NCBI GenBank assembly: GCA_038142325.1 | Contig: JAYQJW010000002.1 | Location: 683,328 to 747,327, forward strand | DNA: 64,000 nucleotides | Direction of reading: 5' to 3' | Origin: Gammaproteobacteria bacterium | GTDB taxonomy: Bacteria > Pseudomonadota > Gammaproteobacteria > GCA-002705445 > GCA-002716945 | In this document: positions 3,325 to 8,916 of the stretch, piece by piece | Layout of the letters: each line of letters begins with the position of its first letter | Numbering within the stretch: the stretch's first letter is position 1 | Notes under the pieces: model-generated | Told to the model about the DNA's origin: nothing | Database searches by the model: none | The model's input: only the letters and a program-made list of their open reading frames with translations | Made by a program: the position numbers and the translations under genes

Positions 3325-4130
3325 CAAAAAATGATTTAATTAACGATGCATTCGATAACGGGTTAAATGATAACAATAAAAGTGATGTTGATGCCGCTGT
3401 AAAAGAAATAATATCAAGTATTGATAAAGGTATTATAAGAGTTGCAGAAAACCATAATGGTGAGTGGTCAGTTAATGAAACTGCAAAAAAAGCAATACTT
3501 CTATCTTTCAGGTTAGGGCAAAATAAATTAATAGATACTAGTTATACTAAGTTTTTTGATAAAGTAGATTCAAAGTTCTCTCATACATCAGAAGGATATC
3601 TTAAAGAAAATAATATAAGAATAGTGCCACAAGCTATTGCACGATATGGATCATTCATTGATAAAAATGTTGTATTAATGCCCTCTTTTATAAATATTGG
3701 CGCATATGTAGGTGAAGGAACTATGGTTGATACTTGGGCTACAGTTGGTTCATGTGCGCAAATCGGATCCAACGTTCATTTATCTGGTGGAGTTGGAATC
3801 GGAGGAGTTCTTGAGCCTTTACAAGCATCACCAACAATTATTGAGGATAACTGTTTCATAGGCGCCAGATCGGAAGTTGTGGAGGGTGTAATCGTTAGAA
3901 AAAATTCTGTTATATCGATGGGTGTATTTATTGGAAAAAGTACAAAGATATATGATAGAGAAACACAAACCGTTTCGTATGGTGAAATCCCTGAAGGATC
4001 TGTTGTTGTCTCAGGATCTTTGCCATCTAAGGATGGCACATGTAATCTTTATTGCGCTGTAATTGTTAAGAAAGTTGATGAAAAGACTTTAAGCAAGGTT
4101 GGGATTAATGAAATTTTGAGAGAAGCTTAA
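3321..4130 (+). CDS. dapD: Tetrahydrodipicolinate N-succinyltransferase
   Basis: [24 protein letters not shown], hexapeptide repeats, [11 protein letters not shown]; intact 269 aa; ATGA overlap with mltF. Confidence 0.97.
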
Positions 4131-6111
4131 GCAATTCTTTTTCATATATAATTTTTATTCCGTAATCTTTCGCTTTATTAAATTTGCTGCCAGGATTATC
4201 ACCACAGATTAATAAATTAGTATTTTTTGAGATACTACTTGTTATTTTATATCCACTAGACTCTAATGTATCTACTAATTCAGATCTTGAATATTTATTA
4301 AATGTCCCTGTTATTACAGCATTAGTCAATTTCTGACTTTTAGTAGCTTTCTCATAAATTATATTTATTCCATGAGAAATAAGATTTTTGATATTACTCT
4401 TATTATCTTTATCATCCAAATAAGTGATTATATTTTTTGCAACAATAGGTCCAACATCATTAATTTCTATTAGTGTTTCAAATTTACAATCAAGAAATTC
4501 ATAGATAGAATTAAATTTTTTAGCAATAGATTTAGATGACGATTCTCCAACTTCTTGGATTCCTAAAGCATATATAAATTTATTGAACATAACATTTTTT
4601 GCTAAATTAATGGAAGTTAGATAATTGTTAATCGATTTATCACCAACTCTATCAAGTTTTTAAAATCATCTTTGTTTAGTTTGAATAGGTCAGCAGAAGA
4701 TTTAATTATTTTTTTAGAAATCAATTCTTTAATGATTTGATTACCAATACCTTGAATATTCATTGCTTTTCTAGAAATAAAATGAATTATTGATTGTTCA
4801 ATTTGAGGGGTACAACCTTTATTATTCATGCACTTAAAAGCAACTTGATTATCAATTTTAGAGAGTATGCTATTACAACTTGGACATTTTTTAGGAGGAA
4901 TTATCTTTTTTGTTATTTTTCTTTTATTTAACTCAACTCTATCTATATCGGGTATAACGTCACCAGCCCTTTTTACATAAACAAAGTCATTTATATTAAT
5001 ATCCTTTGCTTTAATCTCTGAAAAATTATGGAGAGTGGCCCTAGAGACATTAACGCCACCAATATTTACGGGTTCAAGCTCAGCCACAGGCGTGATGGTT
5101 CCTGTTCTCCCAACCTGAAAAGTAACATCCAAAATTTGTGTCATCGCTTCTAGAGATTTAAACTTATAAGCTATGGCCCATTTAGGTGATTTACTTGTAT
5201 AGCCAAGCTTACTGTAATACTGTAACTCATTAACCCTATAAACTAAACCATCGATATCATAGGGGATCTTATGTCTGTCAGAATTCATCTGATCGAAATA
5301 ATTATATGATTCATTAATATTTTTTACTACTTTAGAATAGTTATTAATTGGGAATCCAATCTTTTGTAAATGATCCATCAATTTACTATGAGTTTTATAA
5401 TTTAAAAAACTTGATGGATCAGAAACTCCATGTATGAACAATCTTAGTTTTCTAGAACTTGCTATAGCGGGATCTAGTTGTCTAACACTCCCAGCTGCAA
5501 GATTGCGTGTATTGGAATACACTTTTTTATTAGTTTTTTTTAATTCTTGATTAATAGATATAAAATCTTTTTTATCTATAAATACCTCACCTCTTAATGA
5601 AAATCTTTTTGGAAGATGAGTGTTATCTATAGTCAGAGGAAGAGATTTAATTGTTTTTACATTTAGGGTTACATCTTCACCAATAAAACCATCGCCTCTT
5701 GTGGTGGCATTAACATATTTACCATTTTCATATGATATGCTGACTGCAAGTCCATCAAACTTAGGTTCTGCAAATAAATTTATAGAAGAAAGACTTATGC
5801 TTGATAATAATTTTGAATAAAAGTCTTCAAAATCATTTTGAGAAGTTGCATTTGAAAGTGATAACATAGGTTTGTCATGTTTTTTTTTATCAAAACTACT
5901 TAATAAATCAGAACCAACTCTCTGAGTGGGAGAATCACTAGTAATTATTTTAGGATTTTCGGATTCAATGTTTTTGAGCTCATTATAAAGTTCATCATAT
6001 TTCAAAGTCAGATATACTTGGTGAATCATATGTATGATAAAGTAGATTGTGTTGATTAATAATTTTTATTAACTTCTGATATCTTTCGTTAAGTCTCTTT
6101 GCGCTATTCAT
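4105..6111 (-). CDS. ligA: NAD-dependent DNA ligase, split by apparent frameshifts near 6010 and 4640
   Basis: Adenylation motif [28 protein letters not shown], Zn finger CPSC...C...C, C-terminal BRCT. Start ATG at 6111 read from the sequence. Confidence 0.95.
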
Positions 6112-6133
6112 ATTTATTTTAAATTTAATTCTT

Positions 6134-8916
6134 TTATGATTGAGTTGCCAATTCTAGAGCATCTTCCACATTTACAGATACAAGTTTTGACACACCCGCT
6201 TCTCTCATTGTAACGCCAGAAAGTACATCGGCAATTTGCATTGTTGATTTATTATGTGTGATAAATATAAACTGAACTGACTCAGACATTTCTTTGACTA
6301 CATTACAGAATCGTTCATTGTTAGCTTCATCAAGTGGAGCATCAACCTCGTCTAACAAACAAAATGGTGCTGGGTTTATTTTAAATATAGAGAAAACAAA
6401 AGCTATTCCTGTTCCGGCTTTTTCTCCTCCAGATAATAGATTAAGATTTTTAACGAGTTTTCCGGGAGGTTTTGCCATTATATTTACTCCAGTATTAAGT
6501 AAATCATTATCAGTAAGCTCTAGAAAAGCTTTGCCACCACCAAAGATTTTAGGGAAAAAATATTCAAGATTACCGTTAATTGAATCGAATGTTTCCTTGA
6601 ATTTAGTTTTTGTTTCAAGATCAATTTTTTTAATTGCAGCTTCAAGTGTATCTATTGATTTTGTTAAATCATCAAACTGTCTATCAAGATAACTTTTACG
6701 CTCTTCATTTTCTTTTAATTCATCTATTGCAGCAAGATTTATAGCTCCAAGTTTTTCAATCTTAGCTCTTGTTTTCTCTAGAGCTTCTTCATCATCTTTT
6801 AAAGGCGTTTCATCAATATTTTTTATAGCATTTAATATTACATCTTTGTTAAAGTCAGAATTATCAAATAAAGAACTTTTGTTAGTTTTAATTTCCGTTA
6901 TTTCTATTTTGTTATTATTTATATCAGAATTAAGTTCATTTAAATTCAAAGATAATTCACGTAATTGTTCATCGATATTACGAATATCATTATCTAATGA
7001 GGATATTTTATCTTGAATATTTGCAAGTTGATTATCCTTGTCCCGTTTTTTATCAATTAAAGCATTTAATTTATTTTTACCCTCTACTTTTGTAGGTTGC
7101 TTAACATCAGATAGTAAATCTTGTTTTTTTATTGAAAGAACACTCATGTTTGCTTTTAATTTGCTCAAAGTCTCTTCTTGTGAAACAATTTGGGTTTTGA
7201 GTGTCGAAGAAGTAACATTATTTACATTTAAATTTTCAGCTGCTTCATTATATTGCCAGTTATACTTATCATGAGATTGTTTTAAATCAATCTTTTCTTT
7301 TTCAAGTTTATTTTTATATATTTCATAATCTTTCTGTTTTTGTTCATACTGAATAAGATTAGACTCAGATTTATTAACTTTATCTTGATAACTTTTAATA
7401 TTTCTCTCAATTTCATTGACTTGGTCAACCACTGATTTATTATTTTCTTTAATTTTTATAGTAATTTTTTTAAATAAATCAATTAAATTATTAAGAGATG
7501 CTGTTAGTGATTTTTTTGTTCAGAAGGTAAATCTGGTAAGTGCCTCTCATAATCAATTTTAAAATTAATCAATTGTGACTGATAAGATTCAGATAGCTCT
7601 AAAAGTTCTGCTTGAATAGTTAAATCATTTTTATTTTGAGATGATTCAATAAGCTTGTTTAATCTTTTCTCTAAATTGAAAATATTTTCGAGATATGATT
7701 CTATTTTTGATTTTTCAAGCTCAATCTCTTTATCTAATTCAATTTTTTCAGACAAAAATTTATTAAAATTAGACTGCCAGTTTTGAAGAGAAAAAGAAGA
7801 TTCTTTGATATTTTTATTAATTTCATCAACTTTGATTTGAAGATTGTCTTTCTCTTTTATGCTTTTAGTTAATAGTTGATTATCTGATTCTATCTTATTA
7901 ATTATAGAATTGATTTCATCTTCTGTTTTTTTTATATCAGAATTAATTTCATTAATATTATCTTTTTTGCTAGTTTGAATTTGTTCAGTGTATTCTATAT
8001 CTTTCTCAGCTTTTGCTATTTCTGCTGCCACTTGAAATGATTCAGATTGCACCTTATTGAATATCTCTTGTTGATCATCTCGTGATAATTTAAGACTATC
8101 TATTTTTCTATTATATCCAGTTTCTTGAGCATCATACTTGTCTTTTTTTAGAAGTAGTTCTTTTTCTTTTTTATGTGATTTATTAAGTAACTCATCAAAC
8201 TGCATTATTTTTTTACTAATTATTTTAATTTTATATTCTTCTTCTTGGTCTTTATAATTTTTATATAACTCAGCATCATTTGCTTGTTTTTGTAGCTTAG
8301 TAAGAGATAAATTTATTTCTCGCATAATATCTTTTAGCCTACTGAGGTTTTCTGATGTGTGTTTAAGTCTAAGTTCTGTTTCTCTTCGTTTTTCCTTGTA
8401 TTTACTTATACCTGCAGCTTCTTCTAAATATGTTCTAAGCTCCTCAGGTTTTGAATCAATTATCTTTGATATCATGCCTTGCTCGATTATCGCGTAACTT
8501 CTTGGCCCTAAACCAGTACCAAGAAACACCTCTCTAATATCTTTTCGTCTGCACCTAGTGTTATTTAGAAAATAACTTGACGTTCCATCTCTATTAGCTT
8601 CTCTTCTTATTAAAATTTCATTAAATTTGGCAAATTTGGAATCTAACTTATTCAGAGAATTATCAAATAATAATTCAATACTTGCATGACTGACTTCAGA
8701 GCGAGATGATGAACCAGAGAATATGACATCATCCATTGTATCACCTCTAAGGTTACGTGCTGAAGATTCTCCCATAACCCATCTAATTGCATCAATAATA
8801 TTAGACTTACCGCATCCGTTTGGGCCAACAATACCGGTCAAATTACTGGGAAAATTTAATGAGGTAGAATCAACGAATGTTTTAAAGCCTGATAATTTAA
8901 TTCTAGATAGTCTCAT
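6134..8916 (-). CDS. smc: SMC chromosome segregation ATPase, about 927 aa after restoring one A in the A7 run near 7511-7517; no recognisable hinge
   Basis: Walker A GPNGCGKSN, GTGLGPRSYAIIEQG, EEAAGISKYK, LGAINLAAIDE, signature LSGGEK, Walker B/D-loop LLDEVDAPLD, FIFITH. Confidence 0.93.

What the first reader, a model, noticed from the sequence alone, without database searches (positions are those of the whole stretch)
6134..8916. SMC protein with intact ATPase heads but no hinge domain
Seen: adding one A to the A7 run at about 7511-7517 fuses the two ORFs into about 927 aa with all head motifs (GPNGCGKSN, EEAAG, LGAINLAA, LSGGEK, DEVDAPLD). Between the two coiled-coil arms there is only a short helical segment, DLTIQAELLELSESYQSQLINFKIDYERHLPDLPSEQKKSLTASLNNLIDLFKKITIKI. 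It has no Gly-rich alpha/beta hinge and no CxxC zinc hook; the middle of the protein, over several hundred residues, is almost free of Gly. Known: canonical bacterial SMC is about 1150-1190 aa and dimerises through a hinge of about 150 aa that closes the ring used for loop extrusion. Inference: a miniaturised condensin with shorter arms and a new helical-hairpin apex, dimerising by a different mechanism or working with an open apex. I cannot say whether similar short SMCs in other streamlined marine genomes have already been characterised.
Basis: partly seen in the sequence, partly recalled or inferred. Interest (0 to 1): 0.75.

Follow-up and report, generated by a model that had tools for sequence, protein, structure and literature searches.

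The report
Natural Smc condensin without a hinge
This small marine bacterium and its whole order carry a conserved chromosome-organising Smc protein that lacks the hinge domain and ends in a small helical cap; the break in the gene is almost certainly a sequencing error.

Summary
The smc gene (8916..6134, minus strand) is split by one missing base in an A7 run. Read through, it gives a protein of about 927 aa with complete Smc heads and no hinge.

The frameshift is an assembly error. The nearest relative and public metagenome contigs carry the extra base. Seventeen of 21 single-base indels in 26 kb break frames in this window only. dN/dS stays at 0.06-0.09 on both sides of the break.

The hinge loss is real. 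In 24 of 28 genomes of the order (one family, six genera) and in the 120 listed metagenome protein clusters, the protein is 925-956 aa with no PF06470 match. Most other families of the class keep a hinge-bearing Smc of about 1170 aa. ScpA, ScpB and ParB are retained.

AlphaFold2 predicts an all-helical arm ending in a cap of about 62 residues. The cap is two helices, a 6-residue loop and matched breaks below. Whether the cap dimerises is untested.

Hinge-less ocean SMCs were published in 2025, assigned to Actinobacteria. This scan has already reported hinge-less Smc on other DNA, including SAR86 and probably this lineage. It is therefore a new member of a known kind.

The parts
7504..8916 (-). 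smc, N-terminal part: Walker A head half, N-terminal arm helix and the first cap helix. It ends at a false stop created by the frameshift.
   Evidence: ORF. TIGR02168 profile positions 1-443, E 4.5e-132. SMC_N 9.4e-32.
7511..7517 (-). A7 homopolymer (T7 on the plus strand) where one base is missing. This is the frameshift site.
   Evidence: The nearest relative, G003, has one more base here and an intact 927-aa frame. Public metagenome contigs put one base in behind 7510 or 7511.
6134..7519 (-). smc, C-terminal part: second cap helix, C-terminal arm helix, and the head half with signature motif, Walker B and D-loop.
   Evidence: Frame open from 7519. TIGR02168 profile positions 746-1180, E 1.6e-115. 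dN/dS 0.089 against G003 downstream of the break.
7439..7623 (-). Coding region of the helical cap that stands where the hinge should be. In orthologue numbering it is residues 432-493: helix 432-458, loop 459-464, helix 465-493.
   Evidence: AlphaFold2 models of the intact orthologue. Coordinates were mapped by codon counting from 8916 and from 7510.
4105..6065 (-). ligA directly downstream of smc. It is also split by a missing base, in an A5 run near 4657, which shows the same assembly error type.

Best explanation
This is the organism's one Smc, the ATPase of an Smc-ScpAB condensin loaded through ParB. In the ancestor of this gammaproteobacterial order it lost the globular hinge and about 30-35 residues of coiled coil on each strand.

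The two arm helices now run into a cap of about 62 residues. The cap is two helices of 27 and 29 residues joined by a 6-residue loop, and it is set off from the arm by matched helix breaks.

Shown here: the protein is intact in relatives, strongly constrained, lineage-wide and keeps its partners. The split in this window is a homopolymer sequencing error.

Inferred: the cap replaces the hinge as the constitutive dimerisation module, most simply by two hairpins packing into a four-helix bundle. That would leave effective arms of about 260 residues, a length that works in engineered B. subtilis Smc. Head engagement, ScpA bridging, ParB-joint loading and loop extrusion would then proceed as in canonical Smc-ScpAB.
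For: Orthology:
- TIGR02168 is the best family for both halves.
- Intact orthologues sum to 757.7-866.1 bits against a cut-off of 567.
- The closest solved chains are B. subtilis Smc heads, 5xg3 at 2e-116.
- In the Smc tree the family sits among Gammaproteobacteria as one clade with support 100.

The hinge loss is real and lineage-wide:
- PF06470 was found in 0 of 25 family genomes, against 14 of 16 other families of the class.
- 24 of 28 order genomes have one open frame of 927-956 aa that matches the profile only at about 1-450 and about 730-1180.
- All 120 listed metagenome clusters are 925-927 aa, and none carries a hinge among its precomputed Pfam hits.
- No joints appear in public contigs laid over 7200-7900, and one contig spans 7269-7631 with a single 1-base gap.

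The frameshift is an artefact. dN/dS is 0.060 before the break and 0.089 after it.

Partners are kept:
- ScpA and ScpB are each present in 27 of 28 order genomes.
- ParB is present in this genome.
- MukB and RecN were not found in this genome.

Structure:
- The full-length model has mean pLDDT 79 and is all-helical from 170 to 792.
- The apex model has mean pLDDT 88. It has helices 351-426, 432-458, 465-493 and 496-579, with breaks at 427-431 and 494-495.
- Foldseek returns only coiled-coil hairpins, with Smc arm fragments 5xg2 and 5nnv among the top hits.

The cap as an interface:
- The cap helices are 36% and 41% hydrophobic, against 28% (SD 3.7) for arm windows. No arm window reaches the value of the C-side helix.
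- D455 is invariant and R458 nearly so.

Precedent from B. subtilis (PMC5344682, passages read):
- A Rad50 zinc hook can replace the hinge.
- Arms work at 344-321 aa and at 267-253 aa but not between.
Against: - The cap as a whole is no better conserved than the arms: entropy 1.68 bits against 1.40 and 1.71, with heads at 0.38. That is weak for a specific interface.
- The loop differs in length and sequence between genera.
- Counted to the loop, the arms are about 290 aa, which falls in the length range that failed in B. subtilis. The match to the working 253-267 window depends on where I place the head and cap boundaries, about +-10 aa.
- Cap pLDDT is only 67-86.
- No expression, dimerisation or chromosome data exist for this lineage.
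Confidence: 0.65

Rival explanations
1. Open-apex Smc. The cap only caps the hairpin and does not dimerise. Two Smc molecules are held together only at the head end, by ATP-dependent head engagement and by ScpA bridging the neck of one Smc and the cap of the other. The complex would then work without a closed Smc lumen.
For: The cap is poorly conserved and its loop varies between genera. ScpA and ScpB are retained. ParB acts on the head-proximal joint, not the hinge (PMC9449133, passages read).
Against: The cap helices carry more hydrophobic residues than a two-stranded coil needs. The cap is a discrete module bounded by matched breaks. In B. subtilis a dimerising module of any fold was still present in every working construct. 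From recall, hinge-dimerisation mutants of B. subtilis Smc are defective (Hirano and Hirano 2002, seen here only as a reference).
Confidence: 0.2
2. The gene is really broken in this strain, as a recent pseudogene or a phase-variable A-run. The cell then lacks functional Smc or depends on slippage at the A7 run.
For: The deposited sequence has A7 and a stop. In X1 and X5, part of the contig depth at the site shows no added base.
Against: - 17 of 21 single-base indels in 26 kb break frames in this window only, and none breaks a frame in the relative only. The broken genes include the essential ligA.
- scpA is split only in this genome out of the 27 that have it.
- dN/dS downstream of the break is 0.089.
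- Contigs from three studies carry the extra base.
Confidence: 0.05
3. Changed job. With the hinge gone and RecN absent, the protein has moved towards a RecN- or Rad50-like role in DNA repair or tethering rather than loop extrusion.
For: RecN was not found in a 98.5% complete genome. Hinge-less head-coil-head proteins in bacteria are typically repair factors (recall). Sussfeld et al. raise a change of function for their hinge-less cluster.
Against: It keeps ScpA, ScpB and ParB. It keeps near full-length arms and Smc-type heads. It is the only Smc-family match in the genome. It has no zinc hook.
Confidence: 0.07
4. Assembly collapse removed a hinge-coding segment.
For: None was found. The assembly is error-prone, but only in single bases.
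Against: The same architecture appears in 24 of 28 genomes from six genera and in 120 independent clusters. Public contigs from several studies are colinear across the apex with no joints.
Confidence: 0.01

Closest known systems
Canonical bacterial Smc of Smc-ScpAB (NCBIfam TIGR02168; B. subtilis Smc, PDB 5xg3 and 3zgx heads)
   Same: Head motifs, head sequence (E 2e-116 to 5xg3), antiparallel coiled-coil arm with internal breaks, ScpA, ScpB and ParB partners, and a single copy per genome.
   Different: No hinge: about 235 aligned residues are missing, comprising the hinge and about 30-35 residues of coil per strand. A 62-residue two-helix cap stands in its place. Total length is 927-956 aa instead of about 1165-1240.
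Oceanic 'hinge-less SMC' cluster of Sussfeld et al. 2025 (Environ Microbiome 20:65, PMC12153180; section 15 read in full, supplements searched)
   Same: Marine and abundant, with SMC heads and coiled coil, no hinge and no CxxC hook. It groups with SMC rather than Rad50/SbcC.
   Different: Their cluster is assigned to Actinomycetes and branches with actinobacterial seeds. This one branches within Gammaproteobacteria. The paper gives no genomes, partners, cap anatomy or arm lengths. Its supplements list only gene-catalogue ids, so I could not test sequence overlap.
Engineered B. subtilis Smc(Zh) and Mini-Smc (Burmann et al. 2017, PMC5344682; passages read)
   Same: Smc heads and arms carry a non-hinge dimeriser at the tip. 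The arms are shortened to about 260 aa if the cap is counted as the module.
   Different: Those are laboratory chimeras with a zinc-dependent hook. Here the tip is a natural, metal-free helical hairpin, and its dimerisation is not shown.
Shorter hinge-less Smc of SAR86-type bacteria
   Same: Gammaproteobacterial, marine, with small genomes, no hinge and a helical tip.
   Different: They lack much more of the arms: the profile is matched only to 361 or 466 and from 857 or 795. Whether the two groups share one loss is unresolved. They are sisters under LG+G4 with SH-aLRT 89 but not under the C20 mixture model.
RecN and Rad50/SbcC (SMC-like ATPases without a hinge; properties from recall)
   Same: Head, antiparallel coil and non-globular tip.
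   Different: Rad50 and SbcC dimerise by a CxxC zinc hook, which is absent here. RecN is about 550 aa, and its model finds nothing in this genome. Neither works with ScpAB.

Membership tests
Bacterial Smc (Smc-ScpAB; TIGR02168) | ABC-type head with Walker A, signature motif, Walker B and D-loop, split between the two termini | tested here: met
   The motifs are in the translations. SMC_N is found in both halves. 5xg3 matches at E 2e-116.
Bacterial Smc (Smc-ScpAB; TIGR02168) | Score over the equivalog cut-off (567 bits) | tested here: met
   Intact orthologues sum to 757.7-866.1 bits in one frame. The two pieces in the window score 442 and 387 bits separately.
Bacterial Smc (Smc-ScpAB; TIGR02168) | [quoted passage not shown] | tested here: met
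   AlphaFold2 predicts helices from 170 to 792 that fold back at 459-464. This is a prediction only.
Bacterial Smc (Smc-ScpAB; TIGR02168) | Central hinge dimerisation domain (PF06470) | tested here: not met
   No match at E<=1 in the halves or in the whole genome. No match in 0 of 25 family genomes. No match at E<=10 in apex fragments, with a positive control. The model has no strands in the middle.
Bacterial Smc (Smc-ScpAB; TIGR02168) | Kleisin ScpA and kite ScpB encoded in the genome | tested here: met
   for this genome. Each is present in 27 of 28 order genomes.
Bacterial Smc (Smc-ScpAB; TIGR02168) | Constitutive homodimer | not testable with these tools
   No measurement was possible. See Tried and rejected for the one prediction job.
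Rad50/SbcC | CxxC zinc hook at the coiled-coil apex | tested here: not met
   No CxxC in any of 22 orthologues, and 0-2 Cys in the whole arm region.
RecN | Match to TIGR00634, length about 550 aa | tested here: not met
   No match in the genome at E<=1e-5.
MukB | MukB N-terminal domain PF04310 | tested here: not met
   No match in the genome at E<=0.01.
Oceanic hinge-less SMC (Sussfeld 2025) | SMC-type heads and coil, no hinge, no CxxC, marine | tested here: met
   (Tara and marine metagenome sources). The runs are estuary, marine or seawater metagenomes.
Oceanic hinge-less SMC (Sussfeld 2025) | Membership of their monophyletic, actinobacteria-affiliated cluster | tested here: inconclusive
   This protein groups with gammaproteobacterial Smc. 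Their sequences are available only as catalogue ids, so no direct comparison was possible.

The most novel reading that the evidence does not exclude
The cap does not join two Smc molecules. This condensin would work with an open apex, held together only at the heads by ATP and ScpA. Chromosome organisation by an Smc-kleisin motor would then need neither a hinge nor a closed Smc ring. This has happened in an abundant free-living lineage and possibly more than once.
Probability: 0.15. Interest if true: 0.85.

Novelty: new member of a known kind. Interest (0 to 1): 0.5.

Why it matters
The hinge is treated as a defining part of SMC proteins. It is credited with dimerisation, with closing the ring and, in some models, with DNA binding or DNA entry.

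Here a free-living lineage keeps Smc heads, nearly full-length arms, ScpA, ScpB and ParB, but ends the arms in a 62-residue helical cap. That makes it a natural counterpart of the B. subtilis hinge-swap experiments. It offers a small, metal-free candidate dimeriser to test, and a way to ask which hinge functions are dispensable in nature.

The value is tempered in three ways:
- Hinge-less ocean SMCs are already in print.
- This scan has reported the same phenomenon on other DNA.
- Nothing about the mechanism was measured here.

For annotation, the split gene should be read as one gene with an assembly error.

Tried and rejected
- Dimer prediction of the apex (residues 385-540, two copies, alignment A2). 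The score was 0.31 against a mark of 0.42 and the tool's verdict was 'no answer'. It is not used for or against binding.
- Foldseek of the apex model against the PDB. Nothing reached E<=0.001. The hits were generic coiled-coil hairpins, so they say nothing about how the cap might pair.
- Naming the lineage. The genome-contig scan returned full-length Smc of other Gammaproteobacteria and one SAR86 record, but none of the close family.
- One or two hinge losses. The LG+G4 tree puts this family next to the SAR86-type short forms with SH-aLRT 89. The C20 mixture tree does not, and no strongly supported branch forces either answer. Amino-acid composition is biased in these rows. The question is left open.
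- Apparent shared tip motif with the SAR86-type forms. The alignment of low-complexity coils is too weak to use.
- Run X8 gave no cover at the frameshift site, so nothing is concluded from it.
- Literature searches. 'SMC + hinge + SAR86', 'hingeless + SMC' and 'lacks the hinge + SMC' found nothing relevant. 'hinge-less + Smc + marine' found only Sussfeld et al.
- Considered and rejected: a hinge encoded as a separate gene (no PF06470 anywhere in the genome), and a second SMC-family protein (only the two pieces of this gene match TIGR02168).

Full report
**What is in the window.** Two ORFs lie on the minus strand, 7504..8916 (470 aa) and 6134..7432. The first starts with the Smc N-terminus and Walker A. 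The second ends with the signature motif, Walker B and D-loop. The minus strand carries an A7 run at 7517-7511. The upstream frame stops at 7506-7504 and the downstream frame is open from 7519, so one more base in the run joins them.

NCBIfam's Smc equivalog TIGR02168 matches profile positions 1-443 with the first piece (E 4.5e-132) and 746-1180 with the second (E 1.6e-115), out of 1181. Pfam finds SMC_N in both pieces and no hinge.

**The frameshift is an assembly error.**
- The nearest genome, G003, is 94.9% identical over the gene. It has one more base at this spot and an open frame of 927 aa. Five further same-genus genomes are also open there.
- Over 25.9 kb of synteny with G003 there are 21 indels, and every one is a single base.
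- At 17 of these 21 indels a frame spanning +-150 nt is open in G003 and closed in the window. At none is the reverse true, and at 4 neither is open.
- ligA, just downstream, is split the same way in an A5 run near 4657. scpA is split only in this genome, out of the 27 order genomes that have it.
- Logan contigs of public marine and estuary metagenomes put one base in behind 7510 or 7511. In X1 this is 17.2 of 33.7 depth, in X5 20.9 of 27.3 and in X7 8.38 of 8.38. X8 has no cover there.
- dN/dS against G003 is 0.060 before the break and 0.089 after it.

These are contigs, not the raw reads of this assembly, so a real strain-level lesion is not strictly excluded.

**The missing hinge is real and lineage-wide.**
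- SMC_hinge (PF06470) has no match in this genome at E<=1. The genome is 98.5% complete.
- Among relatives, hinge was found in 0 of 24 further genomes of the family. It was found in 14 of the 16 other families sampled from the class at E<=0.01.
- The order as held consists of this one family with six genera. Of its 28 genomes at 80% completeness or better, 26 match TIGR02168. Twenty-four do so as one open frame of 927-956 aa matched only at about 1-450 and about 730-1180. G045 is fragmentary, G000 is the split case, and G005 and G009 gave no match.
- A search of 5.8 billion proteins listed 120 best clusters. All are 925-927 aa at 69-96% identity, and none has PF06470 among its precomputed domains. 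Only 8000 candidates were scored.
- No joints were seen in contigs laid on 7200-7900, and one X7 contig spans 7269-7631 with only the 1-base gap.
- Apex fragments of two genera give no hinge even at E<=10, while a full-length class relative gives 1.9e-8.
- Aligned to seven full-length class relatives, about 235 residues are missing. These are the hinge and roughly 30-35 residues of coil on each side.

**Anatomy of the intact protein.** AlphaFold2 was run on the G003 orthologue with a 29-row alignment and gave mean pLDDT 79. The model shows a head, then helices from 170 to 792 with no strands. Matched low-confidence breaks lie at 306-317 and 598-612, and the turn is at 459-464.

The apex alone (residues 350-580, 15 rows) gave mean pLDDT 88. 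It has helices 351-426, 432-458, 465-493 and 496-579. The tip is therefore a discrete cap. It consists of two helices of 27 and 29 residues and a 6-residue loop, separated from the arm by breaks at 427-431 and 494-495. Foldseek finds only coiled-coil hairpins, with Smc arm fragments 5xg2 and 5nnv among the top hits and nothing at E<=0.001.

There is no CxxC in any of 22 orthologues, and Gly is rare. D455 is invariant and R458 nearly so. Just before the loop the motif is I/V-D-F/Y-E/D-R. The loop itself varies in length and sequence between genera.

**Is the cap an interface?** Two results point in opposite directions. The cap helices are 36% and 41% hydrophobic, against 28% (SD 3.7, maximum 40%) for 27-residue arm windows. 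That is more than a two-stranded coil needs. On the other hand, the cap is no better conserved than the arms, at 1.68 bits against 1.40 and 1.71, with heads at 0.38.

**Context.**
- ScpA and ScpB are adjacent genes and are each present in 27 of 28 order genomes.
- ParB is present in this genome.
- MukB and RecN were not found.
- No other TIGR02168 match exists in the genome.
- The closest solved chains are B. subtilis Smc heads.

**Most likely mechanism.** The components point to an ordinary Smc-ScpAB cycle. ParB binds the head-proximal joint in B. subtilis (PMC9449133, passages read).

Burmann et al. 2017 (PMC5344682, passages read) reported three relevant results:
- A Rad50 zinc hook can replace the B. 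subtilis hinge, with normal growth.
- Arms work at 344-321 aa and at 267-253 aa but not between.
- Natural arm lengths peak at 238, 341 and 515 aa.

Counted to the loop, the arms here are about 290 aa. Counted to the breaks below the cap, they are about 258-265 aa, which lies inside the short working window. This depends on my boundary choices and is an inference.

I therefore read the cap as the replacement dimeriser, with about even odds. The main rival is an open apex.

**How far it is from what is known.** Sussfeld et al. 2025 (PMC12153180, section 15 read in full) describe an abundant oceanic 'hinge-less' SMC cluster without CxxC. They assign it to Actinomycetes and report no genomes, partners or tip anatomy. 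Their supplements hold only catalogue ids, so I could not test overlap with this family.

In my class sample, 271 of 300 genomes match Smc. Follow-up of ten genomes with split or weak matches gave the following:
- G263: a hinge-less form of 815 aa.
- G072: a hinge-less form of 733 aa.
- G233 and G053: full length with a gap in the match at the hinge.
- G267: 1062 aa with a weak middle match.
- G099: two separate frames.
- The other four: pieces at contig ends.

A SAR86-titled record carries a 727-aa form.

Trees without the hinge columns place this family next to those short forms under LG+G4 (SH-aLRT 89) but not under a C20 mixture model. One loss or two remains open.

Earlier notes of this scan describe hinge-less Smc in SAR86, Woeseiaceae and an unnamed marine gammaproteobacterium that shares words with this gene. 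My searches found nothing in print on hinge-less Smc in Gammaproteobacteria.

**Verdict.** This is a real, conserved, hinge-less Smc with near full-length arms and a small helical cap. The split in this window is an artefact. It is a new member of a kind first reported in 2025 and already seen by this scan, and its mechanism is untested.

Noticed in passing
window 4105-6065 (-), break near 4657: ligA is split into two frames by a missing base in an A5 run. G003 has A6 there and an open frame.
   Followed up: yes
window 1-25909 against G003 (L044, L045): All 21 indels in 25.9 kb are single bases, many in A/T runs. Seventeen close a frame in the window only, so gene calls throughout this assembly will be fragmented.
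   Followed up: yes
G000:C2:472808-473441 (outside the window): scpA is split into two frames in this genome only, out of the 27 order genomes that have it. scpB follows intact at 473468-473947.
   Followed up: partly
window 6030-6133: Only about 100 nt separate smc from ligA, with no ORF between them. From recall, and from earlier scan notes on SAR86, zipA often sits there in Gammaproteobacteria. I did not search the genome for zipA.
   Followed up: no
G000, whole genome: No RecN (TIGR00634) and no MukB match in a 98.5% complete 1.1-Mb genome. Smc is the only long coiled-coil SMC-family ATPase detected.
   Followed up: partly
G263:C1:643373-645772 (L048); G072:C10:27102-29270 (L050); L107:552-2732: Other gammaproteobacterial families carry still shorter hinge-less Smc forms of 815, 733 and 727 aa, with different deletion boundaries.
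   Followed up: partly
orthologue residues 306-317 and 598-612 (window about 7964-7999 and 7081-7125, -): Matched low-confidence breaks in the two arm helices of the model, possibly an elbow. Conserved arm patches lie at 376-420 and 541-555 and face each other across the coil.
   Followed up: no
G267:C1:1459874-1462942 (L049); G233:C1:649594-653034 (L047): Two class genomes have near full-length Smc (1062 and 1191 aa) whose middle matches the profile weakly or not at all. The hinges may be divergent.
   Followed up: no
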